From NCBI GenBank assembly GCA_041649335.1, contig JBAZNF010000001.1, forward strand, positions 21,285-85,284: a stretch of DNA of 64,000 nt, read 5' to 3'. This document shows, piece by piece, positions 36,813 to 59,235 of the stretch; the first letter of the stretch is position 1, and each line of letters opens with the position of its first letter. This DNA comes from Patescibacteria group bacterium (GTDB lineage: Bacteria; Patescibacteriota; Patescibacteriia; UBA10025; JAHIVO01). Below the pieces are notes generated by a model. The model did not search any database. It saw only the letters and a list, made by a program, of their open reading frames with translations, and was not told the origin of the DNA. A program made the translations under genes and the position numbers.

Positions 36813-39800
36813 ATGAGGGCGCGTACCAATAAAAATAAATTTTTTTTCGGGGCGTTATTCGGCTTTGTTGTCTTTGGGATATTGCTCGGTGCCGCACTCT
36901 GGCTGACCTCATCCCCGTCATTAGCCGTTACCGTCAACCCTAACTTGGGACCGACATTCGGTTTGGGTACGGCTGACCTGGAGTCCACGGTCATCAAGAT
37001 CATCCAGTGGGCGCTCGGGTTTCTGGGGCTGGTCGCCGTGATCATCATCATGTACGGAGGTTTTATCTGGATGACCGCGGCCGGCAACGAGGAAAAGGTA
37101 CGGAAGGCGAAAAAAATCATCACTCAGGCGGTGATCGGCCTGGTTATTATTATGTTAGCCTGGGCAATCGTGACTTTCATCATCGGCCGGCTGAACGGCA
37201 TCCTGAATGGGCCCGGCCAGCAGTTCTGTACTCCCGGCGCGCCGAACGGCTGTTATGATTGTAATGCAGCAGGTACTGCGTACTCTATTTTTGATCAAAC
37301 TAATGGCCCGCAGTGTGTCAGCGGTGATACGTTCCACAAGAAATGGGTTGACCCGGCGCCAAACGAGGATAATGTGCCGCTTTGCAGTATTGTCCAGGTG
37401 CAGTACAATGGGAATTTTGATGCCGGGAGCATCGCAGGAAATGTCGGTTTATATGTTAATTTGGCGACAAACGGCAATGGTGCCGCGTGTAATGCCGCGG
37501 ACGAATGCCGTTCCGGAGTATGTACGGCAAACGCGTGTGTCGGAGATGAAGTCGTCGGTACGTGGCAAGTGGTGGCGTCCAACCATTCATTTTTGGAATT
37601 TTTGCCAAATACGGATTATCTGGAAAACACCGAATATCGGGCGGAGATACGGGCTGGTGTAGCGGAAGAAGCGCCGGCGCGGACGACTGTGCCGTATACC
37701 TGGACATTCACCACCGGCACGACCACGCTGACGACGCCGCCGACAGTGACGCAGATCTACCCGGACGATAACGACACGGGTATTTGCCTGATGACGCCGG
37801 TTCAGGCGAAATTTTCCCAGAAGATGCGCGTGTCCTCAATAAATTCCGGGACAGTCTTGTTGCAGAGCGGCGCGCCGGTACTCCTCAGTACTTTCTCTTT
37901 CCCGACCGTAGCGTCATTCTCCACGAGACCGCAGGCGCCTCTGGTGCCGGATACGGATCATACTGTTACGATGATTGCCGGCACGCCAGGCGGAACCTGT
38001 TCGGTCGCGGGCCCAGGCTGTGACATAAAAAATAATTGCATTACCACATGCGGCGGTACCTGGACGTACAATACCGACGGTATCATGGACGTCTGTTTTA
38101 ACCACCTGGACGGCAACTACAGCGGCACGGATGACGGTTCGGCCGGCGGCGATGACTTTATGTCCATCAACGGCCAGCCTAATCCTGGTGATACTACGCC
38201 GTGGAGTTTCACTACGGATGCAGATACGACTAATACGAAATGTGTCCCGGAAATAACCAGCATTAACCCCGACAATGGTCAGTACAGTGATCCGGCGCCG
38301 GGCGCAGAAATCAGCGGGACGAATTTTGGCATCATCGGCAACGTTACATTCAATAGTGGAGTGTTGGATCAGCTGAATTGTTTTAACGGAGTAAATTGGC
38401 CGAACCAGAATTGCAATGTGTCATGGACCGGCAATACTATCCAAACCCGTATCCCCGGCGGTCCGATCAATTATGGCGGTATCATCCCGTCCAATGGCGC
38501 CAAGGACGGCGGAATAGTGGTGACTATTACGCCCGGCGTGTGTGAGGGCGGCAGCAATGACAATGGCGCGTGCACCGTGGCTAACCAGGCCGCGGACTGT
38601 CCCGGCGGTAAATGCATCGAAGACAGCAACGCCGTCGGTTTTGACGTAACCAGCCCGCAGATCGGGAAAGTGTCCGGATTGGACAAGGCTCCGCATGGCG
38701 GGATCGGACAGTACGTGACCGTTATCAAACGCAATGACAGCAACGCCGGATTTGGAGCAGTCCAGGGACAGGTATTTTTCCGCAACCGGCTGAATGGTGC
38801 GGAGGTAGTCGCGGAATTTCCGCCGGATCCGCCCTGTGATGCGAACTGGTCAGATACGCGCGTCATCATTAAAGTTCCGGATCTGTCAGCGATCGCTACA
38901 GCCTGCGTCGGAAATTGGGCGGCTTGTGTCAATACTGACTCTGAAGTAGCGGTGCAGGTCGTAAAATCTGACGGTACCCGCAGTAATCTGGCATATTTTA
39001 TATATACGAATGAGGCAGCCGGGCCGGGCCTATGTAAAGTTGATCCTGTTTGTGGGGTTGAGGGTACGGCAGTGGTATTGTCAGGAGAAAAATTTGACGG
39101 ACCGAACCCGCACAGCGTCAGTTTTGCTCTCGGGACCAATCCGCCCGTTACAGTGGCCCCGACCAGCTGGACTGATACAGACGTCGGCGCTGACGTCCCG
39201 AATTTGGACAATGCCGAGGACCCGTATGAGGTGAATGTTTCCAACGGCAACGGTGCCAGCAACAGTCTGCCGTTTGAAGTGCCGTGCGGCGGTGTGCCGA
39301 AAGTGGTGGAGACCACAGCATGCAGCCTGCACTGCGTGGGCGGAATCAACGACACCAAATCGTGTTTAAACGACGAATTTTGCGCGCCGGGCGGCGGATC
39401 ATGTATCCAGGACACGTTCCCGTCCCCGAACCCTTATAAGAACGCGACTAACGTCTGCCTGAACGCCGGATTCGGTGCCACGTTCAGCACCCTGATGGAC
39501 CATGCCACACTGAGTGATATCAACATTAAATTATACGATTGTACCGATAACACCTCCGCCTGCGCGACGACGAACGATATCACCCCGCCGCCGGGAAACT
39601 ATTCTGCTTCGGATACGGCTACGAATACCAGTTTCCAGTTTTTTCCGGTTGCCAACCTCACGTCAGACCATTACTACAAGGCGGTTATCAGCAAGGAAGT
39701 GCGCAGCACAACAAACGTTAAGATGGTGAATGATTACGCCTGGACCGTAAAAACACAGGCTGGTACTGACCTATGTCCGGTGACGGGCGTGCTGGTGACG

Positions 39801-42800: not shown

Positions 42801-45800
42801 TGGAGCGATACCCAAAAAAGATACGAATGTCCGGCCGACTCATTTGTCTATCAATATATGGGCAGTGCGGACGGCAGTATGGCCAGCCTGTTCGCGCATT
42901 TGGAATACCTCCATTACTTAAATGGCGGGTGGTACATCGGCGCTGATCCGGTGTCGGACGTCTGCAATGGCCTGTCCGAAGCGGAATGCCCGTGTTTCAA
43001 CTATGAATATAATGTCACCGGTTCAGCCACGGATCATGACGGTCCGGACATCATCGCCGTTGATTCGCTGGTGCTGAACCAGAACACGACCGTGTCGGGC
43101 ACGCGGGCGCTGGACGTGACGGTCAGTGACGCAGGATCCGGCGTCAATCGGGTGTTATTCTACATTGACGGCATCCTGAACTACACGGATACGGATAACG
43201 CCGTCTGGAGCTGGGATTTCAACACCAGTCAGTATACGGACGGCAGCCATACGGTCCGTGTCCGGGCCTATGACAATGCCGGTAACCTGACTGACGGGGA
43301 TTATGCTATCAATATCGACAACAGCGGCCAACCGGATTCTACCGCGCCGTTTGTGACCATCACCACGCCGCAAGACGGGACGACAGTATCGAACCGCAAC
43401 GTCACCTACAGTCCCGATAAATGGATTACGGCGGGAGGGGTCGAGGGCATAGAGGCGTCAAATACCGGGTCAATATTCTGGGTGAACTACCCAGTCGGAA
43501 CATCTTCGTTAAACCGGGTTGATGCCGACCTGACCTTGAGTACATTGCTCAATTCGTTTAATTATCCCAACCCTGATTTGACGTTGAATTTAACACCAGG
43601 GAACAGGGTTTTATATTGGGTAGGCAAAGACAGGTCAACCGGTGATATGCTGGTGACATATACCCCCGATCCTAATGTTGACAGACGAAAAATATTGCGC
43701 ATTCCGGCCGGCGCCGCTCCCAATACCCCGCCAACTTCCATCTATTATTTTACCGGTCCTGGCTTCGATTGGCGCGGCTTTACCCATGCGGTCGGGGCGC
43801 CGGACGGTAAAATTATTGCGGTGATATATTTCCATCAGCTCGCTGTGTATAATCCGAGTACGGGCGTAATTGAGCATTTCCTCGACACGGGCGGACAGAT
43901 TGGCGGTATCGATACTGATAGTGCGGGAAATATTTATATTACACGGGCAACCAACCCCGGCGGCGTGTATAAGTATGACCAGAATTTAAATCTAATCGGC
44001 AGTATTACAAATGCCACCTTTAATCTGCCGATCGGATTAGCCGTCGACGGCCAAACTATTTATGTGGCAAATCAGAATTCTCATGACATTGTCGCGGTGG
44101 ACACCAGCCTGACCAAAGTGGTGCACGTGTTCGGCGAAGCCGGCGTACCGGGCAATGATTTGGCGCACTTGAGTTCTCCGCAGGATGTCACGGTATTCGG
44201 CAATAATTTGTATATTTCTGATCTCATGAACGCGCGCATCCTCCGGGTGAAGACGCTGATCAGCTATGGCGTGCAGATCAACGCGCTGGCTACCGATAAC
44301 CGGCAGGTTTCAAGTGTTAATTTTTCCATCAGGGACGTGGGCAATAATTTAGTTGATGCGTACTCCTGTACCGGCAATACGACCACGACGCTTAGCTGTT
44401 CTTTTGCCCCGCCGTGGGATTCTACCCAGGTACCGAACGGTCCGTATACTATTACTGCCCTGGCGGCGGATAACAGCGGGCATACCGGATCGACGTCCGT
44501 AACCGTCAATGTTGATAATCTGGATCCGATCCGGCCGGTGGTCACATTTGACCAGTCCATACCCGGTCTCTGCGCCGAGGGAACATGCCAAAACAGCGGA
44601 GTCCCGTGTGATTATCTTAATCAGTGCGGCGGCGGGGAATTGTGCGTGTTCAGCGTGGCCTGCGACCAGACGAATACACCCGCTGTCTGCAGCAATAATT
44701 TTAATAACCAGATGTGCTTGCGAAGCGGTTCAGTTACTATACCGGTCTCGGCTACCGACAATAAACAGGTCAACGAGGTGAAATTTTATGTAGACGGGCT
44801 GTTCATGAGCAATGGCATCCATCAGCCGGGGACGTGTGTTACGGGCGGACAGGCATGTACGTCAGATGCTGATTGTACCGCCCCAGATACGTGTGATTTG
44901 GATAATTGGAGCTGGAATTGGGACTCCCAAGGTTACTCAAAAGGCGTGTGCGCCAGCCATTGCAGCGTTACGCTCGGCCAGATGTGCGTCGCCAGCAGCG
45001 ATTGCCCGGCCAATGAGGTGTGCGTCGCGGCCAATGGAATCGGATTGGAGTGCAATGCTGACAGTGAATGCAATCCCGGCCTGACCTGCCCCGGCCACCA
45101 GGTGGTAGCGTATGCTTATGATGATGCCAGGAATATCGGCACGGACACGATGTTCATCCCGGTCGACGTGGCGCAGGACGACGCAGAACCGCCGACGGTC
45201 AGTTTTATCCCGCCGACGCCCAATGAAGGGACGTCCATTGATAACTCTATTTTAGTGCGCGTACAGGCTGATGATAATTATGGCGTCAATCGGGTGAATT
45301 TCTATATGGACCATGTACTGCGGTACACTGCTCTGGCCGGGCAGGCGACAGAATGGACCGTTGATACGACGTCGGTTCCCGACGGATGGCATTCGTTCCA
45401 GGTGGACGCACTGGACGCCCGCGGCAATCGCAGCACAAGTATCGAACGGAATTATAACGTCCGCGGACCCGGCGGCCCCTTGATTACCGATCCGTTTATT
45501 ACGCCGGACACCGGCCCACTGGGAACTGTGTATACCATATATGCCAACGTGACGGATTATGACGGCGTTGACAGCGTCGTCGTGCCAATCCAAAGCCCCG
45601 ACGAAACGGATTTGGCTCCTCCGGTGCTTATCACGCTGGGGTTAGTCTCTGGCGATAATATTTCCGGGTTATACAGCGGTACCTGGACGTCAACTGTGGT
45701 AGCGGCATTGTGGGTGGACGTGCAGGCTCGCGACATACTTGGTAACACCTCGGAATACGAGAATATCCCCGGCCGGCCGGCCTGCGACAACAACGGGACC

Positions 45801-46316
45801 TGCGACAGTCCGGTGGAAACCAACGCGAATTGTCCGCTTGACTGTCCGGCCACGTACCCGGTGATTACTAGCGTTTTGTCTGCCTCGGGCCAGGTCGGTA
45901 TCGCGTTTAGCTACCAGATTATTGCCACGAACGGTCCAAACACGTTTACCGCGACAAATTTGCCAAACGGGCTTACGGTCAATGCGGCCGGGCTGATCAG
46001 CGGTACGCCGGCCGTCGGATCAAATGCCACCTATACGGTTCCGCTGACTGCCACTAATGCATTTGGCACAGATACAAAAAACCTGACCCTGGTCATCCAG
46101 GGACCATGTGTGGCGCACAGCGCCGGCCCATGTACAGGCGCCCTGACCGGCAATGACAACTGTTGCCTCTCAAGTGATTTCTGTAATCATAACGGGACAA
46201 AGACATATACCGCTGACGATACCTGTAGTAGTAAAAAAATTCCGGGGTCGCCTTGCGATTATTGGTTTTGGTGCATTTCAGATGAATGCAGTTTCTTGAC
46301 AAAACGATGTTTATAA
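36813..46316 (+). CDS. Giant (3167 aa) Cys-rich surface protein with an N-terminal VirB2/TrbC-like (T4SS-pilin-like) membrane domain
   Basis: A single uninterrupted ORF. The N-terminal ~130 aa contain two hydrophobic helices flanking ...IIMYGGFIWMTAAGNEEKVRKAKKIITQAVIG.... The rest is extracellular: dense Cys pairs, NHL-type beta-propeller repeats (about nt 43860-44250), three Ig-like Big-type domains (about nt 44260-45440; ATDN(R/K)QV...V.F blocks) and a He_PIG-type putative Ig domain (about nt 45850-46090; LPNGLTVNAAGLISGTPAVGSNATYTV). Confidence 0.9.
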   Translation: MRARTNKNKFFFGALFGFVVFGILLGAALWLTSSPSLAVTVNPNLGPTFGLGTADLESTVIKIIQWALGFLGLVAVIIIMYGGFIWMTAAGNEEKVRKAKKIITQAVIGLVIIMLAWAIVTFIIGRLNGILNGPGQQFCTPGAPNGCYDCNAAGTAYSIFDQTNGPQCVSGDTFHKKWVDPAPNEDNVPLCSIVQVQYNGNFDAGSIAGNVGLYVNLATNGNGAACNAADECRSGVCTANACVGDEVVGTWQVVASNHSFLEFLPNTDYLENTEYRAEIRAGVAEEAPARTTVPYTWTFTTGTTTLTTPPTVTQIYPDDNDTGICLMTPVQAKFSQKMRVSSINSGTVLLQSGAPVLLSTFSFPTVASFSTRPQAPLVPDTDHTVTMIAGTPGGTCSVAGPGCDIKNNCITTCGGTWTYNTDGIMDVCFNHLDGNYSGTDDGSAGGDDFMSINGQPNPGDTTPWSFTTDADTTNTKCVPEITSINPDNGQYSDPAPGAEISGTNFGIIGNVTFNSGVLDQLNCFNGVNWPNQNCNVSWTGNTIQTRIPGGPINYGGIIPSNGAKDGGIVVTITPGVCEGGSNDNGACTVANQAADCPGGKCIEDSNAVGFDVTSPQIGKVSGLDKAPHGGIGQYVTVIKRNDSNAGFGAVQGQVFFRNRLNGAEVVAEFPPDPPCDANWSDTRVIIKVPDLSAIATACVGNWAACVNTDSEVAVQVVKSDGTRSNLAYFIYTNEAAGPGLCKVDPVCGVEGTAVVLSGEKFDGPNPHSVSFALGTNPPVTVAPTSWTDTDVGADVPNLDNAEDPYEVNVSNGNGASNSLPFEVPCGGVPKVVETTACSLHCVGGINDTKSCLNDEFCAPGGGSCIQDTFPSPNPYKNATNVCLNAGFGATFSTLMDHATLSDINIKLYDCTDNTSACATTNDITPPPGNYSASDTATNTSFQFFPVANLTSDHYYKAVISKEVRSTTNVKMVNDYAWTVKTQAGTDLCPVTGVLVTPAKTILAAIDPDPGSTQDYAAVPLGPKCTFMNPNGYTWGWDTLPLGVATVASVLPQPPYNSTATAIAEGTTKVRATTEGKTGQGSLSIILDYCDASTDCTKAGQCPGSICDIPTNRCTPVITDRNGDGQALSPASGPRSPNPAQPGTTVTIEGCYFGSYVVGSSQIQFAGNDSIFFCPKPWTDSQIITSVPDTAPLGNNAVIVRTAVGLTSPGVNFTVTNTCEGGVPVPATGVPGICSISPATGRNLSQTSFNGYQFTSNGAPPVAKAQFTQDGGGYTDSTTGSSDAAGTVFSGATVPDNAVSGPARMAVEVAPNQYCPSNSLTFGVTCSSSDQCGTGCCAYSNLVHAKICQELEACSPGTPGTTCKLDDAEHIAADLCQLGKTVSGTGDYRCIDADSHLTPDSQGTPPVVSGPYPPGASAPCVTCCSMDINGDGSNIPQTNTGGLNCTADIDACSGAGSNRGLYCGCAYDVNNPVPGDTQCDDGSGTLGCGSNTCCYARPQFTGVTPAVPAPPNGLLCLNNIFTFTFDQPMDASSVIPGTSVEMIDSTATNINITVLKTTNGFVIKPAQALTPGLSYTIRLRRDLIRSSKGIAWSATPNDWQAWQWPVDINATICTINSIEWLFIKNPLFSYPAPDYFNCFTDSCTDDMNIGLVGNQHWAFAQALDKYSNPVSANYNWSIGDPTIATVDPAQHTFFNDNLTAQQQNGRTSVNVEAVPDYFTGTKTSSARVTVNACEHPWPNPFPPENDTFPYIDNATHFSISYCRDPGELPLLAPTGDVVVKDGTYLPGNKKNERIKEFFFTRNGTDDAIGILVYENEGNQSPRDWYFSQFGPAAPEPQDLTVDGYPAVRAGTTVYVSAWNAVGANVGDRLYPNIYLISYNEDASDETVAIYNRMISNWEFTINIGLSEKEQMLRDMRRVTDLTAIYAKLMTYRTDKGIFPKLEGGSYVKMLSTSKWPSWQDTLGTAINGNLPKDPIDKFAVPDPLMCTAANHYDQTTCWSDTQKRYECPADSFVYQYMGSADGSMASLFAHLEYLHYLNGGWYIGADPVSDVCNGLSEAECPCFNYEYNVTGSATDHDGPDIIAVDSLVLNQNTTVSGTRALDVTVSDAGSGVNRVLFYIDGILNYTDTDNAVWSWDFNTSQYTDGSHTVRVRAYDNAGNLTDGDYAINIDNSGQPDSTAPFVTITTPQDGTTVSNRNVTYSPDKWITAGGVEGIEASNTGSIFWVNYPVGTSSLNRVDADLTLSTLLNSFNYPNPDLTLNLTPGNRVLYWVGKDRSTGDMLVTYTPDPNVDRRKILRIPAGAAPNTPPTSIYYFTGPGFDWRGFTHAVGAPDGKIIAVIYFHQLAVYNPSTGVIEHFLDTGGQIGGIDTDSAGNIYITRATNPGGVYKYDQNLNLIGSITNATFNLPIGLAVDGQTIYVANQNSHDIVAVDTSLTKVVHVFGEAGVPGNDLAHLSSPQDVTVFGNNLYISDLMNARILRVKTLISYGVQINALATDNRQVSSVNFSIRDVGNNLVDAYSCTGNTTTTLSCSFAPPWDSTQVPNGPYTITALAADNSGHTGSTSVTVNVDNLDPIRPVVTFDQSIPGLCAEGTCQNSGVPCDYLNQCGGGELCVFSVACDQTNTPAVCSNNFNNQMCLRSGSVTIPVSATDNKQVNEVKFYVDGLFMSNGIHQPGTCVTGGQACTSDADCTAPDTCDLDNWSWNWDSQGYSKGVCASHCSVTLGQMCVASSDCPANEVCVAANGIGLECNADSECNPGLTCPGHQVVAYAYDDARNIGTDTMFIPVDVAQDDAEPPTVSFIPPTPNEGTSIDNSILVRVQADDNYGVNRVNFYMDHVLRYTALAGQATEWTVDTTSVPDGWHSFQVDALDARGNRSTSIERNYNVRGPGGPLITDPFITPDTGPLGTVYTIYANVTDYDGVDSVVVPIQSPDETDLAPPVLITLGLVSGDNISGLYSGTWTSTVVAALWVDVQARDILGNTSEYENIPGRPACDNNGTCDSPVETNANCPLDCPATYPVITSVLSASGQVGIAFSYQIIATNGPNTFTATNLPNGLTVNAAGLISGTPAVGSNATYTVPLTATNAFGTDTKNLTLVIQGPCVAHSAGPCTGALTGNDNCCLSSDFCNHNGTKTYTADDTCSSKKIPGSPCDYWFWCISDECSFLTKRCL

Positions 46317-51690: not shown

Positions 51691-52893
51691 ATGAAAAATT
51701 ACAATTCAAATCGGAATACTATGGAAATAAAACCTGACATTGAGACATTTGCGAAGATAAAAGTCGTCGGGGTCGGCGGGTCTGGCGGGGCAGCTATAGA
51801 CCGCATGATAAGTACGAAAATCCGCGGGGTTGAATTCATCGCGATCAATACTGACGCCCAGGCGCTGCACCATTCCAAGGCGCCACATAAGCTTCATATC
51901 GGCAAGACGACGACGAGGGGGCTGGGCGCTGGCATGGACGCAGAAATAGGGCGTAAGGCTGCTGAGGAGAACCAGGATGAGATTCATGACCTCCTGAAAG
52001 GCTCTGACATGATTTTTATCACCTGTGGCATGGGCGGAGGCACTGGTACCGGCGCTTCCCCGCTGATTGCCGATATCGCAAAAGATGTCGGGGCGTTGAC
52101 CGTCGCTGTCGTCACCAAGCCTTTTTCTTTCGAGGGAGCCCAGCGCAAGAGTATTGCAGATTCCGGTTTAGCCGAGTTAACGGAAAAAGTAGATACGATC
52201 ATTACCATACCCAATGACCGCATTTTACAGATTATTGATAAAAAAACGTCTTTATTGGATGCATTCCAGACGGTGGATGAGATATTGCGCCAGGGCGTGC
52301 AGGGCATATCGGATCTCATCACTGTTCCCGGCCTGATCAATGTGGATTTTGCCGATGTGCGTTCGATTATGGAAAGTGCCGGATCCGCGCTGATGGGCAT
52401 CGGCCAGGGGTCAGGGGAGAACCGGGCTATTGATGCGGCAAAAGCGGCTGTTGACAGTCCGCTGCTTGAATTGTCCATTGAAGGGGCAAAGGGCATTCTC
52501 TTTACGGTAACCGGCGGTCCTGATCTCGGTATGTACGAAGTCAATGAAGCTGCACGGATTATTACGTCGTCCGCGGATCCAAACGCCCGAGTCATTTTTG
52601 GAGCCGTCATTGATGACAGCATGAAGGAACAGATGAAAATTACCGTCATCGCCACTGGATTCGGGGGCAAGCAAAAGTCCCTGAAAAAGATAAAGCCGAT
52701 GGGATTCGGAGGTATGGTGGAGCGTGAGGAGCCGAAAACATTTTTTTCCGCCAGTAAAATAAAATCAACGCCGCCAGAACCTAAACCAAGCTATACGCCG
52801 CCCCCGGCTACCCCGGCACCGAAGAAGGAGCCGGTCAAGTCAGATGAGGAAGACCTGGAAATCCCGGCCTTCATCCGCAAGAAGATGATGTAG
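51691..52893 (+). CDS. ftsZ: Cell division GTPase FtsZ
   Basis: Tubulin signature GGGTGTG. Confidence 0.97.
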   Translation: MKNYNSNRNTMEIKPDIETFAKIKVVGVGGSGGAAIDRMISTKIRGVEFIAINTDAQALHHSKAPHKLHIGKTTTRGLGAGMDAEIGRKAAEENQDEIHDLLKGSDMIFITCGMGGGTGTGASPLIADIAKDVGALTVAVVTKPFSFEGAQRKSIADSGLAELTEKVDTIITIPNDRILQIIDKKTSLLDAFQTVDEILRQGVQGISDLITVPGLINVDFADVRSIMESAGSALMGIGQGSGENRAIDAAKAAVDSPLLELSIEGAKGILFTVTGGPDLGMYEVNEAARIITSSADPNARVIFGAVIDDSMKEQMKITVIATGFGGKQKSLKKIKPMGFGGMVEREEPKTFFSASKIKSTPPEPKPSYTPPPATPAPKKEPVKSDEEDLEIPAFIRKKMM

Positions 52894-53041
52894 GCGGCGG
52901 ATCGTATTTACCCTGAGAAATTGCCAGTTAATAACCAAAATCGTCAGCTGTGGCCTGCTTTGTGCTGCTAATTGTTTGCTGTCGGCAGATTCCGATACCA
53001 TTTGTCCGGCAGTCCCGGTAGCAGTGGAAAATTTTTATCAG

Positions 53042-53050
53042 TTATCCACA
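53042..53050 (+). promoter_or_regulatory. Perfect DnaA-box 9-mer (TTATCCACA) upstream of the nrdR-nrdJ promoter
   Basis: Exact match to the consensus. A second exact copy lies at 62920-62928, and both are followed by G(T/C)G. Confidence 0.35.
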
Positions 53051-53080
53051 GTGAATTTGATTTTTTGCTAATGTATGTTA

Positions 53081-53109
53081 TTGACCGTTACTATATATAG
53101 TAGTATAAT
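53081..53109 (+). promoter_or_regulatory. nrdR-nrdJ promoter (TTGACC-17-TATAAT) with an NrdR box in the spacer
   Basis: The spacer contains TTACTATATATAGTAG. Its core, ACTATATATAGT, is a perfect palindrome matching the NrdR-box consensus acaCtAtATaTaGtgt. Confidence 0.6.
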
Positions 53110-53138
53110 GATTAGTAGACGTACTAGATGTTGATATT

Positions 53139-53615
53139 ATGAAATGCCCGGCTTGCCATCATACGGACACGAAGGTCAGTGATTCCCGCTTAGTTTATGA
53201 CGGGATGGCCATCCGCCGCCGCCGCCAGTGCTTGAAATGCAATTTTCGGTTTTCCACATATGAAGAGGTCGAAATACTCAATGTAACTGTTATTAAACGG
53301 GACGGCCGGCGTGAACCGTACTCAAAGGACAAGCTGGAGTCGGGGCTGAAAAAATCATTTGAAAAAAGGCCGATCACCCAGGACGAGTTTAAGCGGCTGG
53401 TGAGCCTAGTCGAGCGTGACATCCAGATGCTCGGCCATGAAGAGATAAAAACCAGCCAGATTGGCGAGATCGTGATGAAGCACCTGAAAAAAAGAGACGA
53501 GGTCGCTTACATCCGTTTTGCATCGGTCTATCGGTCATTCAGGGATGCCAAAACATTCCAACATGAGCTCCGCAAGCTGCTGACGCCCCGGAGCATGAAA
53601 AAAAATAAACATTAA
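53139..53615 (+). CDS. nrdR: Transcriptional repressor NrdR (Zn ribbon + ATP cone)
   Basis: MKCPACHHTDTKVSDSR...CLKC. Confidence 0.95.
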   Translation: MKCPACHHTDTKVSDSRLVYDGMAIRRRRQCLKCNFRFSTYEEVEILNVTVIKRDGRREPYSKDKLESGLKKSFEKRPITQDEFKRLVSLVERDIQMLGHEEIKTSQIGEIVMKHLKKRDEVAYIRFASVYRSFRDAKTFQHELRKLLTPRSMKKNKH

Positions 53616-53628
53616 GGTACTTATACGT

Positions 53629-55926
53629 ATGGTAAAGATCACCAAAATCCGTAAACGATCGGGAGTTGTCGTGGATTTCGACCTGTCAAAGATCTCCAAT
53701 GCAATTTATAAGGCATCGGTATCGGTCCAGAAGGACGATCAGAAATTAGCCGAGAAGCTGGGGAAAAAAGTAGCCGGCATCCTCGAGAAAAAATATGACA
53801 GTACTACTATTCCGACTGTGGAACAGATCCAGGACATTGTCGAGGAGGTCCTGATTAAGGAGAAGCAGATTCAGCTGGCCAAAGCCTATATCCTGTACCG
53901 TAAAGAGCACCAGAAAATTCGTGCCGCGAAGGGGATGTATCTGGGCTTGGCGGAACTGGATACGAATCTGACTGTCAACGCATTGCGGGTCTTGTCAAAG
54001 CGGTACTTGCGGAAGAATCCGAACGGCAAAGTGATCGAGACGCCGCCGCAAATGTTCCGTCGCGTGGCGGCCAATATTGCGCAGGCAGATACCCGGTACG
54101 ATACACTGTTGACCCAGAAGGTGGATGTGGAAAAAACTGAAGAGGAATTTTACCAGGTGCTGTCCCGTTTAGAATTTGTCCCTAATTCTCCCACACTGAT
54201 GAATGCCGGCAAGGAATTGCAGCAGCTGGCCGCCTGTTTTGTGTTGCCGGTCGGGGATTCGATGGAGGAAATTTTTGACGCGGTCAAATGGACCGCCCTG
54301 GTGCATAAGACCGGGGGCGGGACCGGTTTTTCGTTTAGCCGTCTCCGTCCGAAAAATGACCGGGTCATGTCTACTAAAGGAGTGGCTTCTGGCCCCGTGT
54401 CCTTTATGACCGTATTTGACGCCGCCACGGAAACCATCAAGCAGGGCGGGACGCGGCGCGGCGCAAATATGGGCATCTTGCGCGTTGATCATCCGGATAT
54501 TTTGGAATTTATTACCGCCAAAGAGAATAATGACCGGCTGAATAATTTCAATATTTCCGTCGCGGTGACGGAAGAATTCATGAAAGCGGTGGAACAGAAC
54601 ACTGATTATGACCTGATCAATCCCAAGGACAAAACGAGCATTGACCGCCTGAATGCGCGGAAAGTTTTTGACCTGATCGTAACGTTGGCCTGGAAAAACG
54701 GTGATCCGGGCATCGTGTTTATTGACCGCATCAACCGGGACAACCCGACCCCGCATGTCGCCGAGATGGAAGCGACGAACCCGTGCGGCGAACAGCCGTT
54801 ATTACCGTTTGAAGCATGCAATCTCGGATCACTAAATCTGTCGAGAATGGTTAAGGGGGATTTTTTCCTCGGCGAAGAGGTTACCCTTGATTGGGACAAG
54901 CTGAGACAGACGATACGGACATCCATCCATTTCCTTGATAACGTCATTGATATGAGCCATTATCCGTTGCCGCAGATTACCGATATGGTCCATAACAACC
55001 GTAAGATCGGTTTGGGCCTGATGGGATGGGCGGACCTGCTGATCATGCTCGGCATCCCGTATGATAGCCAGGAGGCTGTGGATTTGGGTGAGAAAGTGAT
55101 GGGATTCATTGCGGCAGAATCAAAGATAATGTCGCAGGACCTGGCCCGTGACCGTGGGCAGTTCCCTAACTTTGAAGGCAGTGTTTATGACAAGCCAGGC
55201 GCCCCGAAGATGCGCAATGCCACCACCAATACGATTGCCCCAACCGGAACTATCAGCATCATCGCCGGATGCTCATCCGGCATCGAGCCGTTATTTGCCA
55301 TATCATATGTCCGTAATGTCATGGATGATAATGAACTGATAGAGGTGAATCCGTTATTCGAATTGATCGCCAGACGAGAGGGTTTTTACAGCGAAGAACT
55401 GATGAAGAAGATCGCCGAACATGGCGGCGTACAGGGCATGGATGAGGTGCCGGCCAAATGGCAGAGACTGTTTGTGGTTTCGCATGACATCATCCCGGAG
55501 TGGCACCTGAAGATGCAGGCCGTGTACCAGAAACATACCGACAATGCCGTGTCCAAGACCGTTAATTTCCCCAATGACGCAAAGGTTGAGGATGTCGAGG
55601 AAGTGTATATGCTTGCTTACCGCCAGGGGTGTAAAGGGGTGACGATTTACCGTGACCGTTCGCGGGACGTACAGGTGCTCAATATCGGTTCCGTTAAGCA
55701 TAAGGAGCTGAAGAAATCATTCAGCTATAATTATGACGATTTACGAAGCGGGGCATCGGTACCGACAGTCAAGACGGCGAGCGAACCGGAAAAAGTGCCG
55801 GTTGCCAGCGCTGTCCAGCGCAGCCACATTATTGAAGTGTGCCCGGAATGCAAGACGAACATGGAAATCAAGGAAGGGTGTTCGGTCTGCCCGAAATGTG
55901 GATTTTCGGCATGCAGTCTTGGATAA
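53629..55926 (+). CDS. nrdJ: Class II (adenosylcobalamin-dependent) ribonucleotide reductase with N-terminal ATP cone
   Basis: ATP cone (MVKITKIRKRSGVVVDFDLSKISNAIYKA), catalytic core NPCGEQPLLPFEACNLGSLNL, C-terminal CxxC...CxxC. Confidence 0.88.
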   Translation: MVKITKIRKRSGVVVDFDLSKISNAIYKASVSVQKDDQKLAEKLGKKVAGILEKKYDSTTIPTVEQIQDIVEEVLIKEKQIQLAKAYILYRKEHQKIRAAKGMYLGLAELDTNLTVNALRVLSKRYLRKNPNGKVIETPPQMFRRVAANIAQADTRYDTLLTQKVDVEKTEEEFYQVLSRLEFVPNSPTLMNAGKELQQLAACFVLPVGDSMEEIFDAVKWTALVHKTGGGTGFSFSRLRPKNDRVMSTKGVASGPVSFMTVFDAATETIKQGGTRRGANMGILRVDHPDILEFITAKENNDRLNNFNISVAVTEEFMKAVEQNTDYDLINPKDKTSIDRLNARKVFDLIVTLAWKNGDPGIVFIDRINRDNPTPHVAEMEATNPCGEQPLLPFEACNLGSLNLSRMVKGDFFLGEEVTLDWDKLRQTIRTSIHFLDNVIDMSHYPLPQITDMVHNNRKIGLGLMGWADLLIMLGIPYDSQEAVDLGEKVMGFIAAESKIMSQDLARDRGQFPNFEGSVYDKPGAPKMRNATTNTIAPTGTISIIAGCSSGIEPLFAISYVRNVMDDNELIEVNPLFELIARREGFYSEELMKKIAEHGGVQGMDEVPAKWQRLFVVSHDIIPEWHLKMQAVYQKHTDNAVSKTVNFPNDAKVEDVEEVYMLAYRQGCKGVTIYRDRSRDVQVLNIGSVKHKELKKSFSYNYDDLRSGASVPTVKTASEPEKVPVASAVQRSHIIEVCPECKTNMEIKEGCSVCPKCGFSACSLG

Positions 55927-56005
55927 TATTTCCAGCAAATATCCGCGACGCGGTATGGCCGGTGGACTCACCGCATGGCAGCAGAGGGACTATTTGGGGA
56001 CGATT

Positions 56006-56560
56006 GATTTGACTATGAAGTTTAAAAAAATAGACAGCGGTTTGGTACATATATATACCGGGGACGGCAAGGGCAAAACCACAGCAGCCCTTGGACTGGC
56101 GTTGCGGGCGATCAGCTATAAAAAACATGTGCTGATGGTCCAGTTCATAAAGGGTCCCTGGCGTTCTGGTGAGCTCGATATCGTAAAAAAATTATCCCCA
56201 TACCTGCAGATCGTAGCGCTGGGTGAAGGGTTCGTAAAAATACTGGGCGACCGGAAGCCATTCCAGGCGCATCAGCGGGCGGCCCGGAATGCACTCCGTC
56301 AGGCAGCGCTGGCAATACGGTCCGGCCAGTTCGGCATGGTGATACTGGATGAAGTTAATGTGGCCATACGGGAAAAACTGGTCACTGCCGCATCAGTAGC
56401 CCGTCTCGTGAGGGCCAAGCCGTCGGCCGTCGAACTGGTTTTGACAGGACGGCATGCACCAGCTACACTAATACAATTGGCTGATTATGTGTCGGAAATC
56501 AAGATGATCAAGCATCCCTTCACTCGGGGCATTCTAGCCCGGCCATCAATCGATTATTAA
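56006..56560 (+). CDS. cobA: ATP:cob(I)alamin (corrinoid) adenosyltransferase, CobA/CobO/BtuR type
   Basis: P-loop IYTGDGKGKTTAALGLALRA plus the family core. The start is uncertain; an earlier Met at about 55952 is also possible. Confidence 0.78.
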   Translation, partial: DLTMKFKKIDSGLVHIYTGDGKGKTTAALGLALRAISYKKHVLMVQFIKGPWRSGELDIVKKLSPYLQIVALGEGFVKILGDRKPFQAHQRAARNALRQAALAIRSGQFGMVILDEVNVAIREKLVTAASVARLVRAKPSAVELVLTGRHAPATLIQLADYVSEIKMIKHPFTRGILARPSIDY

Positions 56561-56579
56561 TTATTTACCATATAACCGT

Positions 56580-57089
56580 ATGGACAAAAACGATACCAAG
56601 ATCCATTGGTGGTTTATCAGCGCCACGTTAAGCGTGGCAGTGGTACTGGTTACCGCCTTGGCCATTTCTAGTTACAATACTGACGTCGTTATAGCCGACC
56701 AGACGACCCATATGCAGAAAGTGCAGGTGGCAGTGGGTCCCCAGGTTCCGTCCGGAAAGGTTGCCGGGGTAGAGGTGGTCCGGGCCAAAGTCATCATCCA
56801 GCGCAGCATCACCGGGAATACCGTCAGCGTTGACATGAACCTGGAAGCCGGTTCGACAGTATTTGATGCGCTTCAGGATGCTGTCGTTGCCTATGGTCTC
56901 CCGTTAGACACGAAAGATTATGGCGATCTCGGCGTGTTGGTGAACAGCATCGGTGATCTGGTCGGAGGCCAAGATGGCAAGTACTGGTCATATTATGTGA
57001 ATGGCGAGCCGGCGACCATAGCTGTCAATCAGCAGGTGGTTCAACCGGGCGATACGATAGAGTTCAAGTTTGCCGAGAGCCTGTTCTAA
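56580..57089 (+). CDS. Membrane-anchored DUF4430-like protein (family linked to cobalamin handling)
   Basis: N-terminal TM, then a beta-rich domain ending KYWSYYVNGEPATIAVNQQVVQPGDTIEFKF. The family assignment is from recall and unverified. Confidence 0.55.
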   Translation: MDKNDTKIHWWFISATLSVAVVLVTALAISSYNTDVVIADQTTHMQKVQVAVGPQVPSGKVAGVEVVRAKVIIQRSITGNTVSVDMNLEAGSTVFDALQDAVVAYGLPLDTKDYGDLGVLVNSIGDLVGGQDGKYWSYYVNGEPATIAVNQQVVQPGDTIEFKFAESLF

Positions 57090-57107
57090 TAGGTAATATT
57101 TCATTCT

Positions 57108-57653
57108 ATGAAAATACAGAATGCGCGGTTATTGTTTATTTTTATTTCGGTCATTACTGGACTGAGCGTGGCCATGCGGTTCCTGCCCCATTCGTATAAT
57201 TTTGTCCCTGTCGGCGCCCTGGCTCTTTTTTCCGGAACCTATATCCGGTCGAAGTGGGGGGTTCTCATGCCAGTAGCGGCCATGGCCGTAACGGATGTGT
57301 TCATCGGCTGGCATAACATAGTGTTGTTTACGTGGGGAAGTTACGCCGTAATAGGGATGATCGGCTGGTGGGTACGCCAAAAGCCGAACGTACTGAAAAT
57401 TGCCGCCGGGACCGTGTCCGGCTCAGTAATTTTTTATCTGCTGACGAATTTCGCCGTATGGGCCTGGACGCCATTGTACCAGAAAACATGGGCTGGTCTG
57501 ATCCAAAGTTATGTGATGGCTGTCCCGTTCTACCGCAATACTTTTTTCGGCGACCTGTTCTATGTCGCGGTATTTTTCGGCGTTTACCAGGCGGCTGTTT
57601 ACCTGGTTGCTAAGCGCGCGGAATCCAGGAAGCCGTTTGCGCATATAAGCTAG
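57108..57653 (+). CDS. Polytopic small membrane protein (5-6 TM), possible substrate-capture component co-operonic with the DUF4430-like gene
   Basis: Hydrophobicity pattern only. Confidence 0.5.
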   Translation: MKIQNARLLFIFISVITGLSVAMRFLPHSYNFVPVGALALFSGTYIRSKWGVLMPVAAMAVTDVFIGWHNIVLFTWGSYAVIGMIGWWVRQKPNVLKIAAGTVSGSVIFYLLTNFAVWAWTPLYQKTWAGLIQSYVMAVPFYRNTFFGDLFYVAVFFGVYQAAVYLVAKRAESRKPFAHIS

Positions 57654-57754
57654 CCAAACGAGTAATATAAAAAATACCGGTTTCAATAACGGTATTTTTT
57701 TTACCCTTTATTTATTGTGCCATTGGGGTATACTGGAGATAGTAGGAAAATCTT

Positions 57755-58675
57755 ATGGCCAATTATCAGCACTATCAGCGTTATCGGCCGCAGGGGGGAC
57801 GGTCACGGTTCAACTGGACCCGAATAGCACTTATTGTCGGCATCCTTTTTGTTGTGTTCCTGATCGGCCGGGCGATATTCAGTAAGCAGCCGACCCCGAC
57901 CTTGACGCTACCTGGCGACAATTCAGCGGTGGCCGAGTCGGGCGTCGACACAAACATCAATTCAATGCTGACCAACGCTGACGCAAATACAAATGTTGAA
58001 GAAAATGCCAATGCCAACAACAATGCCAATGTTAATGTGGCCTCTTCTTCCAGCAGCTTCAGTGTCGCAGACTGTACCAAGGTCATTTCGCGCGCCTCGA
58101 CTGACCAGAAACAGATTGCCCTGACTTTCAATGTCGGCACCGTCAAGGAAGGAGAAATCGACCGGCTGTTGGCGGCTCTCAAGGCCGGTGCCGTGCCGGC
58201 GGATTTTTTTGTCCGCGGCGACGTGGCCGAAACGAACGCGGTCATGGTTAAAAAAGTCAGCGACGCGGGGTTTTCGGTGTACAACCTGAGTTACAGCTAT
58301 CCGCATTTTAATGATTTGCCCGCACCCAGCGTGGCGGAGCAGCTGACAAAAGCGGACCAGGCAATCGGCCAAGTGACCGGTACGTCAACCAAACCATTTT
58401 TCCGTCCGCCGTATGGGGAAGCGGACGCGGACGTCCTGGCTGCGGTAACGGAGGCCGGATATTGTCCGGTAACGTGGACGGTTGACGCGCTGGATTGGTC
58501 ATCGGACTATACGGCGGAGCAATCAAAAGACCGGGTCCTGCAAAGTGCCGTGCCGGGAGGTATCGTCCTCATGCAGGCCAGCAATGCCACAACTGCCGAC
58601 ATTATATCCGACGTCATTACACAGTTGAAAAATTCCGGTTTTACGATTGTAAATTTAGAGACGTTACTCACCTAG
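57755..58675 (+). CDS. Membrane-anchored polysaccharide deacetylase (NodB-homology domain)
   Basis: TM, an Asn-rich linker, then a NodB-like core (LTFNVGT...FFRPPYGE...). Confidence 0.7.
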   Translation: MANYQHYQRYRPQGGRSRFNWTRIALIVGILFVVFLIGRAIFSKQPTPTLTLPGDNSAVAESGVDTNINSMLTNADANTNVEENANANNNANVNVASSSSSFSVADCTKVISRASTDQKQIALTFNVGTVKEGEIDRLLAALKAGAVPADFFVRGDVAETNAVMVKKVSDAGFSVYNLSYSYPHFNDLPAPSVAEQLTKADQAIGQVTGTSTKPFFRPPYGEADADVLAAVTEAGYCPVTWTVDALDWSSDYTAEQSKDRVLQSAVPGGIVLMQASNATTADIISDVITQLKNSGFTIVNLETLLT

Positions 58676-58893: not shown

Positions 58894-59235
58894 ATGGCCA
58901 AGCGTGTCATTATCATCATAATTATCGTCGGCGCCGGATGCGTGCTGATTGCCTTATTGTCTCCGCACCTTACTATAAATCCAAAAAATACCCCCACGGC
59001 CAATCCTCAGCCAAATCTTGTTGTCGCTGAATGCGACCGGGACAGTGATTGCCTGGTCAGTGGTTGTTCCGGTACGTTGTGCGTACCGCGTGACCGGGCA
59101 TCGCAGCAGTATTCGACCTGCGAATGGCAGCCAGAGTACGCCTGTTATGCCGATGACAGCTGCCTATGCCGTGCCGGACAGTGCCGATGGGCGGAGACGG
59201 AAGCCTATGCTTCCTGCATCAGACAGCTGAAATAA
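58894..59235 (+). CDS. Small secreted/anchored Cys-rich protein (10 Cys in about 70 aa)
   Basis: N-terminal TM or signal sequence (IIIIIIVGAGCVLIALL), then CDRDSDCLVSGCSGTLC...CEW...CYADDSCLCRAGQCRW. Confidence 0.5.
   Translation: MAKRVIIIIIIVGAGCVLIALLSPHLTINPKNTPTANPQPNLVVAECDRDSDCLVSGCSGTLCVPRDRASQQYSTCEWQPEYACYADDSCLCRAGQCRWAETEAYASCIRQLK

What the first reader, a model, noticed from the sequence alone, without database searches (positions are those of the whole stretch)
53139..57653. Cobalamin supply module hard-wired to the ribonucleotide reductase: nrdR - class II (AdoCbl) RNR - corrinoid adenosyltransferase - DUF4430-like protein - polytopic membrane protein
The only RNR in the window is a class II enzyme, which requires adenosylcobalamin. 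Immediately downstream are a CobA/BtuR-type ATP:corrinoid adenosyltransferase, a membrane-anchored DUF4430-like protein, and a small polytopic membrane protein. DUF4430 members have been linked to cobalamin binding and transport, though this family assignment is from recall and unverified. A minimal-genome organism that cannot make B12 would need exactly this: capture corrinoid, adenosylate it, feed it to the RNR. The promoter carries an NrdR box and a perfect DnaA box, tying dNTP synthesis and cofactor salvage to one control point.
Basis: partly seen in the sequence, partly recalled or inferred. Interest (0 to 1): 0.6.

Follow-up and report, generated by a model that had tools for sequence, protein, structure and literature searches.

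The report
B12 uptake genes wired to reductase
A tiny-genome (CPR/Patescibacteria) bacterium keeps its only visible DNA-precursor enzyme, which needs vitamin B12, in one operon with a B12-activating enzyme, a transcobalamin-like B12 catcher and an unstudied membrane protein (DUF6580) that looks like a B12 importer; it is a new variant of a gene cluster already known in lactobacilli.

Summary
Window 53139-57653 encodes, on one strand with gaps of 13-88 nt, NrdR, a class II (AdoCbl) ribonucleotide reductase, a CobA/BtuR adenosyltransferase, a membrane-anchored DUF4430 protein and a DUF6580 membrane protein. They lie between one strong promoter and a terminator-like hairpin.

- The DUF4430 ectodomain models as the B12-binding beta-domain of transcobalamin, intrinsic factor and haptocorrin.
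- It is homologous to CbrS of Lactobacillus.
- DUF6580 models as an ECF S-component fold. Its only sequence-profile hit in the PDB is CbrT, the B12-specific S component.
- In other phyla, DUF6580 genes sit in cobalamin-riboswitch operons with TonB-dependent receptors.
- In 19 further CPR loci they follow nrdR-nrdJ, with a CobA- or PduO-type adenosyltransferase in 18.

The module is therefore the CPR counterpart of the lactobacillal nrdJ-cbrS-cbrT-pduO cluster.

The NrdR boxes and the perfect DnaA box are conserved in six related genomes.

New here: a cobalamin-transport role for DUF6580 (about 6,750 clusters, absent from the searchable literature), and NrdR/DnaA rather than riboswitch control.

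Not tested: B12 auxotrophy of the genome, dependence on an ECF module, and transport itself.

The parts
53042..53050 (+). Perfect DnaA box TTATCCACA, about 30 bp upstream of the -35 hexamer of the nrdR promoter
   Evidence: One search gives the match. One search shows AGTTATCCACA invariant in 6 of 6 related genomes while its flanks diverge. One search finds perfect boxes upstream of nrdR in three more distant CPR loci as well.
53081..53109 (+). Sigma-70-type promoter TTGACC-17 nt-TATAAT (11 of 12 matches), the best in 52800-58000
   Evidence: Both hexamers are conserved in the six-genome alignment.
53088..53103 (+). NrdR box 1 (core CTATATATAG, 53091-53100), inside the promoter spacer
   Evidence: the only zero-mismatch match in the window. 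Conserved.
53121..53136 (+). NrdR box 2 (core CTAGATGTTG, 53124-53133), 33 bp after box 1 and just before the nrdR ATG
   Evidence: Tandem boxes 31-33 bp apart occur upstream of nrdR in 5 of 15 more distant CPR loci, and 29 bp apart in one more.
53139..53615 (+). nrdR: a repressor that senses (d)ATP through a Zn ribbon plus an ATP-cone
   Evidence: TIGR00244, 186.5 bits against a cutoff of 124.65.
53629..55926 (+). nrdJ: class II, adenosylcobalamin-dependent ribonucleotide reductase with an N-terminal ATP-cone and a C-terminal Cys-rich tail
   Evidence: NF006417, 1055 bits against 961; TIGR02504, 742 bits against 400.
56015..56560 (+). cobA/btuR-type ATP:cob(I)alamin adenosyltransferase, 181 aa, with P-loop GDGKGKTT. 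An alternative start lies at 55955.
   Evidence: Relatives are called at 181 aa.
56580..57089 (+). CbrS-like DUF4430 protein. It has an N-terminal membrane anchor (helix 10-33), a flexible linker, and an extracytoplasmic domain like the transcobalamin beta-domain (residues about 60-169).
   Evidence: One search gives the Pfam match. One search gives the model; the top 19 Foldseek hits are 17 chains of TC, IF or haptocorrin plus two chains of a bacterial DUF4430-type protein, 3U7Z. One search gives the profile hits to haptocorrin, TC and IF; hhalign 98.7% to the CbrS family.
57108..57653 (+). DUF6580 membrane protein: an S-component-like, CbrT-related candidate corrinoid transporter
   Evidence: One search gives the Pfam match; model pLDDT 93.5; the top 10 Foldseek hits are ECF S components; the only PDB profile hit is CbrT, 6FNP_A. 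One search gives the hhalign result.
57669..57702 (+). Terminator-like hairpin (A-tract, ATACCG stem, 10-nt loop, CGGTAT, then a run of eight T) directly after the DUF6580 stop codon
   Evidence: One search gives the sequence.: -12.1 kcal/mol, z = -2.58. The consensus scan missed it, probably because its 10-nt loop exceeds the 8-nt limit.

Best explanation
This is a five-gene operon, nrdR-nrdJ-cobA-cbrS-like-DUF6580, that supplies the class II ribonucleotide reductase with its cofactor.

Proposed sequence of events:
1. A membrane-anchored protein whose ectodomain resembles the transcobalamin beta-domain (DUF4430, homologous to CbrS) captures an external corrinoid at the cell surface.
2. It passes the corrinoid to DUF6580. 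This is a small membrane protein with an ECF S-component fold, distantly related to the B12-specific S component CbrT. DUF6580 carries the corrinoid across the membrane.
3. CobA adenosylates the corrinoid to adenosylcobalamin.
4. NrdJ uses adenosylcobalamin to make deoxyribonucleotides.

Transcription starts at a single promoter. That promoter is overlapped by two NrdR boxes and preceded by a conserved DnaA box. Cofactor supply and dNTP synthesis would therefore respond together to the nucleotide pool, and probably to replication status, rather than to B12 through a riboswitch.

Shown here: gene identities, gene order and its conservation, folds, remote homologies, riboswitch association of DUF6580 in other phyla, and conservation of the operator sites.

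Inferred: B12 binding by the DUF4430 domain, transport by DUF6580, hand-over between the two, co-transcription, and regulation by NrdR and DnaA.
For: Gene identities.

Operon shape:
- Gaps are 13, 88, 19 and 18 nt (with the cobA start taken at the ATG at 56015).
- There is one strong promoter and a terminator-like hairpin after the last gene.

DUF4430:
- The model has pLDDT above 90 over most of the domain.
- The 19 best Foldseek PDB hits (E = 6.5e-7 to 4e-5) are transcobalamin, intrinsic factor and haptocorrin, plus a bacterial DUF4430-type structure, 3U7Z.
- TM-score is 0.82-0.83 to the isolated TC beta-domain. That domain was crystallised with cyanocobalamin as 5NP4.
- Generic ubiquitin-like folds score about 100-fold or more worse, at E of 4.6e-3 or higher.
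- The sequence profile hits haptocorrin at 1.3e-4, TC at 0.021 and IF at 0.024.

DUF6580:
- Model pLDDT is 93.5.
- The top 10 Foldseek hits are ECF S components RibU, FolT and ThiT, with probability 0.75-0.99.
- The family profile hits only CbrT (6FNP_A, E = 0.004) among 177,635 PDB sequences.
- hhalign against a CbrT family profile gives 77.9% probability and E = 1.8e-5. It aligns the N-x-x-P-V and M-x-x-S-[DN]-x-x-L-G motifs.

Known analogue:
- The L. delbrueckii locus reads RTPR - DUF4430 (CbrS) - CbrT - PduO.
- Santos et al. 2018 showed that ECF-CbrT transports cobalamin and cited this cluster (PMC5997447).
- The window's DUF4430 family against the CbrS family gives hhalign 98.7%, E = 3.4e-16.

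Context in 80 genomes:
- 19 CPR loci have nrdJ upstream of DUF6580, preceded by nrdR in 15 of them. An adenosyltransferase lies in the cluster in 18 of the 19.
- That enzyme is either CobA-type or PduO-type and occupies the same or an adjacent slot.
- Seven loci have exactly the lactobacillal order, nrdJ-DUF4430-DUF6580-pduO or the same without a detected DUF4430.
- DUF4430 is the immediate upstream neighbour in 24 of 77 loci.
- One natural fusion of DUF6580, a TM helix and DUF4430 exists.

Outside CPR:
- Cobalamin riboswitches occur in 22 of 41 loci scanned.
- In 12 of these the riboswitch lies upstream of an operon containing DUF6580, usually with a TonB-dependent receptor.

Operator conservation.
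Against: - No biochemical evidence was found that any bacterial DUF4430 protein binds B12 or that any DUF6580 protein transports it. The searchable literature holds nothing on DUF6580.
- DUF6580 does not reach the Pfam ECF S-component models. The link to CbrT is weak: hmmsearch E = 0.004, hhalign 78%, and coverage of only the first four helices.
- Foldseek TM-scores to S components are only 0.46-0.56 normalised by query length and 0.48-0.61 by target length. Neither 6FNP nor BtuM appears in the top 50.
- No ECF energising module lies in the 64-kb window. How transport is energised is therefore unknown.
- The rest of the genome could not be searched. B12 auxotrophy and the absence of other RNR classes are assumed from general knowledge of CPR genomes.
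- Co-transcription is not shown. A promoter-like site (10 of 12 matches) lies inside cobA at 56441-56469.
Confidence: 0.8

Rival explanations
1. The role is the same, but DUF6580 is a conventional group-II ECF S component. It would depend on a shared EcfA/A'/T module encoded elsewhere in the genome, exactly as CbrT does in Lactobacillus, and would not be a stand-alone transporter.
For: - DUF6580 has an S-component fold, and its closest solved relative is CbrT.
- CbrT itself is encoded away from its ECF module (PMC5997447).
- CPR cells are thought to be monoderm, like Firmicutes, where ECF transporters are common (own knowledge).
Against: - No ECF module is seen in the window. Its only ABC ATPase is SufC.
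- None was detected among the immediate neighbours in the 80 loci, though ECF genes were not specifically searched for there.
- The family is abundant in Bacteroidota, Ignavibacteriota, Omnitrophota and Verrucomicrobiota, next to TonB receptors. According to PMC6072759, ECF-type transporters are found predominantly in Gram-positive bacteria.
- Helix 1 shows no conserved AxxxA-type motif in alignment A1 (by eye).
Confidence: 0.3
2. The DUF4430/DUF6580 pair imports something other than a complete corrinoid, for example cobinamide or another precursor, a lower-ligand base, or cobalt.
For: - CbrT was originally predicted as a transporter of cobalamin precursors, and it also carries cobinamide (PMC5997447).
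- Cobalamin riboswitches also control cobalt and precursor transporters (own knowledge).
Against: - In CPR loci the partners are only a B12 consumer (NrdJ) and the last activation step (CobA or PduO). No cobinamide-salvage or biosynthesis genes lie in the clusters or in the window.
- In other phyla the partner is a TonB-dependent receptor, as for BtuB.
- The DUF4430 fold matches a domain that contacts whole cobalamin.
Confidence: 0.08
3. The adjacency is historical accident. DUF4430 and DUF6580 are envelope proteins unrelated to B12 that happen to lie after nrdJ-cobA.
For: - The next gene is a polysaccharide deacetylase, followed by other envelope genes.
- No direct functional data exist.
Against: - The linkage is kept across many CPR classes while flanking genes change.
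- The adenosyltransferase type is swapped while its position is kept.
- The same four roles are clustered in Lactobacillus.
- DUF6580 is associated with riboswitches in other phyla: 22 of 41 loci, against a few percent expected from riboswitch density. That expectation is my own estimate.
Confidence: 0.03

Closest known systems
nrdJ(rtpR)-cbrS-cbrT-pduO cluster of Lactobacillales (predicted by Rodionov et al. 2009; ECF-CbrT shown to transport cobalamin, Santos et al. 2018, PMC5997447, PDB 6FNP)
   Same: - The same four roles are clustered: class II RNR, DUF4430 protein, small S-component-fold membrane protein, and cobalamin adenosyltransferase.
- The DUF4430 proteins are homologous (hhalign 98.7%).
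- DUF6580 is a remote relative of CbrT.
- Seven CPR loci even share the gene order nrdJ-DUF4430-DUF6580-pduO.
   Different: - The membrane protein belongs to Pfam DUF6580, not to PF12822 ECF_trnsprt.
- The adenosyltransferase in this window is CobA-type, not PduO-type.
- The RNR is the NrdJ type with an ATP-cone, not the RTPR-type enzyme of Lactobacillus, which matches a different set of RNR domain models.
- nrdR is the first gene of the operon, and NrdR and DnaA boxes control it.
- No ECF module is seen nearby.
BtuM (solitary S-component-like B12 transporter of Proteobacteria, PMC6072759)
   Same: - Both are small membrane proteins of about 20 kDa with an S-component fold.
- Both are found with BtuB-type receptors in Gram-negative bacteria that may lack BtuCDF.
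- BtuM is a precedent for B12 uptake without an ECF module.
   Different: - The DUF6580 profile does not hit BtuM in the PDB, even at E = 10.
- The window protein contains no cysteine, and the family has no conserved Cys or His. BtuM's cysteine ligation and decyanation chemistry therefore cannot apply.
Beta-domain of transcobalamin, intrinsic factor and haptocorrin (eukaryotic B12 carriers)
   Same: - The fold is the same: TM-score 0.82-0.85 to the isolated domain, rmsd about 2 A.
- The Pfam family is the same, DUF4430 (PMC4350170).
- The C-terminal G-D-x-I-E-[WF] motif is shared.
   Different: - The window protein has the beta-domain only, tethered by a membrane anchor, and lacks the alpha/alpha-barrel domain.
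- Some other CPR loci do encode a two-domain form, an alpha/alpha toroid plus DUF4430, next to DUF6580.
NrdR regulon, and DnaA control of nrd genes as known for E. coli nrdAB
   Same: - Tandem palindromic NrdR boxes overlap the promoter.
- A DnaA box lies upstream of a ribonucleotide reductase promoter. Its role in E. coli is my own knowledge and was not checked in papers here.
   Different: - The regulon here includes cofactor uptake and activation genes and nrdR itself.
- Box spacing is 32-33 bp in most of these CPR genomes.

Membership tests
NrdR (TIGR00244) | Zn-ribbon plus ATP-cone, with a score above the curated cutoff | tested here: met
   186.5 bits against 124.65. PF22811 and PF03477 both match.
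NrdR (TIGR00244) | Tandem NrdR boxes at target promoters | tested here: met
   two boxes 33 bp apart, conserved in 6 genomes. Protein binding was not tested.
Class II RNR (NrdJ) | Score above the NCBIfam equivalog cutoffs for the B12-dependent enzyme | tested here: met
   NF006417, 1055 against 961; TIGR02504, 742 against 400.
Class II RNR (NrdJ) | Activity dependent on adenosylcobalamin | not testable with these tools
   Needs an enzyme assay.
CobA/BtuR/CobO adenosyltransferase (PF02572, TIGR00708) | Family score above the cutoff, and a P-loop | tested here: met
   PF02572, 191 bits against 25.7. TIGR00708, 168.6 against 167.75, which is marginal. The P-loop GDGKGKTT is visible.
DUF4430 / transcobalamin beta-domain | Pfam PF14478 above the gathering score | tested here: met
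   54.8 bits against 23.8.
DUF4430 / transcobalamin beta-domain | Beta-domain fold of TC, IF and haptocorrin | tested here: met
   E down to 6.5e-7, and TM-score 0.82-0.85 normalised by the isolated domain.
DUF4430 / transcobalamin beta-domain | Binds cobalamin | not testable with these tools
   Needs a binding assay on residues about 60-169.
CbrS-CbrT system (Lactobacillales) | A DUF4430 protein (CbrS) encoded directly before the transporter and next to a class II RNR | tested here: met
CbrS-CbrT system (Lactobacillales) | The transporter is a member of the CbrT / PF12822 ECF S-component family | tested here: not met
   only PF20221 matches, and no PF12822 hit appears at E up to 0.01. The relationship to CbrT is remote only: E = 0.004, 77.9%.
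CbrS-CbrT system (Lactobacillales) | Cobalamin adenosyltransferase in the cluster | tested here: met
   CobA-type here. PduO-type in Lactobacillus and in 12 of the nrdJ-linked CPR loci.
CbrS-CbrT system (Lactobacillales) | Works with an EcfA/A'/T module | not testable with these tools
   None lies in the 64-kb window.
ECF S-component fold | Six-helix S-component architecture | tested here: met
   the top 10 hits are all S components, with probability 0.75-0.99 and TM-scores of about 0.46-0.61.
BtuM | A conserved cysteine as the axial cobalt ligand, and sequence similarity to BtuM | tested here: not met
   The protein has no cysteine, and the family has no conserved Cys or His. No BtuM hit appears in the PDB profile search.
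Cobalamin-riboswitch regulon | Riboswitch upstream of the operon | tested here: not met
   none in the window, even at E up to 10. This feature is met for DUF6580 genes of other phyla.

The most novel reading that the evidence does not exclude
DUF6580 may be a large, so far unrecognised family of corrinoid transporters, with about 6,750 clusters at 50% identity. It would work without an ECF module. Its extracytoplasmic partner would be a membrane-anchored DUF4430/CbrS receptor in monoderm cells (CPR) and a BtuB-type TonB receptor in diderm phyla. If so, it would fill part of the acknowledged gap in inner-membrane B12 transporters for bacteria that lack BtuCDF. In CPR bacteria, B12 acquisition would then be governed by the dNTP and replication regulators NrdR and DnaA instead of by B12 itself.
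Probability: 0.45. Interest if true: 0.7.

Novelty: new variant of a known kind. Interest (0 to 1): 0.55.

Why it matters
CPR/Patescibacteria have very small genomes and live off other cells. If their only route to DNA precursors needs adenosylcobalamin, then B12 scavenging is a point of absolute dependence, and this operon names the candidate parts.

More broadly, the analysis gives a concrete, testable function to DUF6580. This Pfam family has thousands of members in Bacteroidota, Ignavibacteriota, Omnitrophota, Verrucomicrobiota and CPR, and no paper on it could be found. Reviews still state that B12 transporters are unidentified in many B12-dependent bacteria (PMC6593275; PMC6072759).

The analysis also shows that the bacterial partner CbrS shares the fold and Pfam family of the beta-domain of animal B12 carriers.

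Tried and rejected
- **My own covariance model.** I planned to build one from the first riboswitch hits so as to scan all loci at once. The MAFFT alignment was too poor, so I used three more Rfam searches: two on 21 further loci and one on the window. That gives 41 of the 80 loci scanned. The remaining non-CPR loci and most CPR loci were not scanned.
- **BtuH.** I recalled that Bacteroides BtuH binds B12 through DUF4430. The papers say DUF4465, so I dropped this link.
- **Rodionov et al. 2009** could not be read under the PMC id I guessed, PMC2612444. I established the identity of CbrS as a DUF4430 protein directly from L. delbrueckii contigs.
- **BtuN.** This name for a B12 transporter appears in annotation-based papers. 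I could not find out which protein family it denotes, so it remains possible that some annotation pipelines already call DUF6580 a B12 transporter.
- **Single-sequence PDB searches** of both small proteins found nothing. Only profile searches did.
- **A replication origin** was considered as an explanation for the DnaA box. I rejected it because there is a single box and cumulative GC skew rises steadily across the window.

Full report
**What is there**

The window comes from a Patescibacteria (CPR) metagenome-assembled genome. The DUF6580 protein is 100% identical to an NCBI/ENA record on a 200,811-bp contig.

On the + strand, after ftsA and ftsZ, lie five genes:
- nrdR, 53139-53615.
- A class II ribonucleotide reductase, 53629-55926.
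- A CobA/BtuR-type adenosyltransferase in ORF 55733-56560.
- A DUF4430 protein, 56580-57089.
- A DUF6580 membrane protein, 57108-57653.

All five family assignments pass curated thresholds.

The adenosyltransferase most likely starts at the ATG at 56015. The Pfam match begins 8 residues after it, and four of the five relatives have 181-residue proteins.

Intergenic gaps are 13, 88, 19 and 18 nt.

**Transcription unit and control**

The best sigma-70-like promoter in 52800-58000 is TTGACC-17-TATAAT at 53081-53109.
- One NrdR-box core (CTATATATAG) is the only perfect match to the core consensus in the window. It lies inside the promoter spacer.
- A second core (CTAGATGTTG) lies 33 bp downstream, just before the start codon.
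- A perfect DnaA box, TTATCCACA, lies at 53042-53050. One such box could be chance: the window has three against 0.64 expected.

I aligned the ftsZ-nrdR spacer with five relatives whose DUF6580 proteins are 56-74% identical. The spacer is otherwise poorly conserved, with 46% mean column identity. AGTTATCCACA, both promoter hexamers and both NrdR boxes stand out as conserved blocks.

Perfect DnaA boxes also precede nrdR in three more distant CPR loci. Tandem NrdR boxes 31-33 bp apart precede it in five of fifteen, and 29 bp apart in one more.

Directly after the DUF6580 stop codon is an A-tract, hairpin and T-run (-12.1 kcal/mol, z = -2.58).

No cobalamin riboswitch is present, either at Rfam gathering thresholds in the window or at E up to 10 in 52700-58000.

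Co-transcription and regulation by NrdR and DnaA are inferences from these features.

**The DUF4430 protein**

An AlphaFold model built from 43 homologues has three parts: an N-terminal membrane helix (10-33), a low-confidence linker, and a confident domain (about 60-169, pLDDT mostly above 90).

Foldseek against the PDB:
- The 19 best hits (E = 6.5e-7 to 4e-5) comprise 17 chains of transcobalamin, intrinsic factor and haptocorrin, plus two chains of a Ruminococcus gnavus structure, 3U7Z.
- TM-scores are 0.82-0.85 to the isolated transcobalamin beta-domain and to 3U7Z.
- The transcobalamin beta-domain was crystallised with cyanocobalamin.
- Generic ubiquitin-like folds score about a hundredfold or more worse.

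A sequence profile of the family also finds haptocorrin (1.3e-4), the TC beta-domain (0.021) and intrinsic factor (0.024). A paper on B12 binders notes that DUF4430 is the C-terminal domain of TCN proteins (PMC4350170).

**The DUF6580 protein**

The model is very confident (pLDDT 93.5).
- Its ten best PDB matches are all ECF S components (RibU, FolT, ThiT and others). Probability is 0.75-0.99, but TM-scores are only about 0.46-0.61 and E is 0.1-1.
- A profile of 27 family members, searched against all PDB sequences at E up to 10, finds a single protein: chain A of 6FNP, E = 0.004. I take this 182-residue chain to be CbrT, the vitamin B12-specific S component of Lactobacillus delbrueckii.
- Profile-profile comparison with a small CbrT family alignment gives 77.9% probability and E = 1.8e-5 over the first four helices. 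It aligns N-x-x-P-V and M-x-x-S-[D/N]-x-x-L-G.
- The protein matches no Pfam S-component model and contains no cysteine. It is therefore neither a canonical CbrT nor a BtuM.

**The known analogue**

Santos et al. (PMC5997447) state that CbrT lies in an nrdJ-cbrS-cbrT-pduO cluster, and they show that ECF-CbrT imports cobalamin.

I recovered that locus from metagenome contigs. It reads class II RNR, a 138-residue DUF4430 protein (CbrS), CbrT (PF12822), and a PduO-type adenosyltransferase.

The window's DUF4430 family and the CbrS family are clearly homologous (hhalign 98.7%, E = 3.4e-16). A proteomics paper also notes a DUF4430 gene next to rtpR in L. rhamnosus (PMC9963975).

The window's module therefore has the same four roles in the same neighbourhood.

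**Comparative context**

A scan of one genome per species returned 80 DUF6580 loci. These were analysed.

In CPR-type loci:
- 19 have nrdJ upstream on the same strand, preceded by a detected nrdR in 15.
- 18 of the 19 include an adenosyltransferase.
- Six have CobA between nrdJ and DUF4430, as in the window.
- Five have PduO in that slot.
- Seven have PduO directly after DUF6580, which is the lactobacillal order.
- The two unrelated adenosyltransferase families replacing each other at a kept position argues for selection on function.
- DUF4430 is the immediate upstream neighbour of DUF6580 in 24 of 77 loci.
- Five loci encode larger proteins that combine an alpha/alpha-toroid with DUF4430 or a related domain. 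That is the two-domain plan of transcobalamin.
- One metagenomic protein fuses DUF6580, a membrane helix and DUF4430.

Outside CPR (Bacteroidota, Ignavibacteriota, Omnitrophota, Verrucomicrobiota and others):
- The partner is a TonB-dependent receptor rather than DUF4430.
- Cobalamin riboswitches were found in 22 of the 41 loci scanned.
- Twelve of these lie upstream of an operon that contains DUF6580.
- About ten lie immediately after DUF6580, leading into the receptor gene.

The family is large: 6,750 clusters at 50% identity with E up to 1e-3.

**Mechanism**

The most likely reading is capture of an external corrinoid by the tethered DUF4430 ectodomain, translocation by DUF6580, adenosylation by CobA, and use by NrdJ. 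All of this would be under a promoter repressed by NrdR and probably sensed by DnaA. I put this at about 0.8.

How transport is energised is open. The family's abundance in diderm phyla next to TonB receptors favours a solitary transporter, as shown for BtuM and some BioY proteins (PMC6072759). So does the lack of any ECF module in the window, whose only ABC ATPase is SufC. A shared ECF module elsewhere in CPR genomes cannot be excluded.

**Limits**

- Only 64 kb of the genome was readable. It holds no cob/cbi genes, no btuCDF, no ECF module and no other RNR. B12 auxotrophy rests on general knowledge of CPR genomes.
- No paper mentions DUF6580.
- NCBI names it a 'putative transport protein'.
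- Some annotation systems use the name 'BtuN' for a B12 transporter, and I could not identify which family that is.

**Verdict**

The concept is known from lactobacilli, so this is a new variant rather than a new kind.

Its value lies in three things:
- Extending the module across CPR.
- A well-supported, testable function for a large uncharacterised family.
- Control by NrdR and DnaA rather than by a riboswitch.

Noticed in passing
P0266 (metagenomic protein, 337 aa): A natural fusion of DUF6580 (residues 1-170), one extra membrane helix (about 188-212) and a DUF4430 domain (255-329). The topology fits an outward-facing binder attached to the transporter. Only one example was seen.
   Followed up: partly
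L048:4627-5343, L076:5498-6220; P0252: Genes of Pfam PF01902 (Diphthami_syn_2, an ATP-pyrophosphatase-like family) sit between the TonB receptor and DUF6580 in riboswitch-controlled operons. They account for 4 of 77 immediate neighbours. One protein, P0252, appears fused to DUF6580, but its C-terminal half looks like an over-extended ORF. This could be an unrecognised cobamide-related enzyme.
   Followed up: no
L002:6456-7970, L006:1331-2845, L005:9301-10596: A 504-residue protein with no Pfam match and a C-terminal CxxC...CxxC lies between nrdJ and DUF6580 in L002. Its homologue in L006 (28% identity over 438 aa, E = 2e-31) directly follows a cobalamin riboswitch. This is an unnamed B12-linked family in CPR-type genomes.
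   Followed up: partly
L003:5151-6965, L010:6241-7971, L022:6111-7940, L050:363-2180, L052:5472-7958: Large CPR proteins combine an alpha/alpha-toroid (SQHop_cyclase / Prenyltrans hits) with DUF4430 or a related domain. They are encoded beside DUF6580. This is the two-domain architecture of transcobalamin, in bacteria.
   Followed up: partly
L013:4143-7556, L032:3677-7105: NrdJ in these two loci is about 1,140 residues long, and its tblastn match is split in two. For L013 a LAGLIDADG_3 hit was also returned. This suggests an intein in the reductase.
   Followed up: no
window 36813-46316 (+): A 3,167-residue protein with a T4SS-pilin-like N-terminus followed by many bacterial Ig-like domains. 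It is probably a giant surface or adhesion protein, as is common in episymbiotic CPR.
   Followed up: no
window 58894-59235 (+): A small membrane-anchored protein matches the eight-cysteine 'heavy_Cys' / CGP-CTERM family (TIGR04289 and TIGR04292, both below their cutoffs). It is conserved downstream of the operon in relatives.
   Followed up: no
window 2471-10745 (+): A block of genes for iron and oxidative-stress handling: Fur, SufC, SufB, SufD, SufS, SufU, Fe/Mn superoxide dismutase, ferritin and two DsbA-like thioredoxin proteins.
   Followed up: no
window 56441-56469 (+): A promoter-like site, TTGACA-17-TACACT (10 of 12 matches), lies inside cobA, upstream of the DUF4430 gene. It may be chance, or an internal promoter for the two uptake genes.
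   Followed up: no
L005, L006, L007, L010, L021, L032: These contigs are labelled 'uncultured Gammaproteobacteria', yet they carry the CPR-type nrdR-nrdJ-DUF4430-DUF6580-pduO arrangement. The taxonomic labels look doubtful.
   Followed up: no
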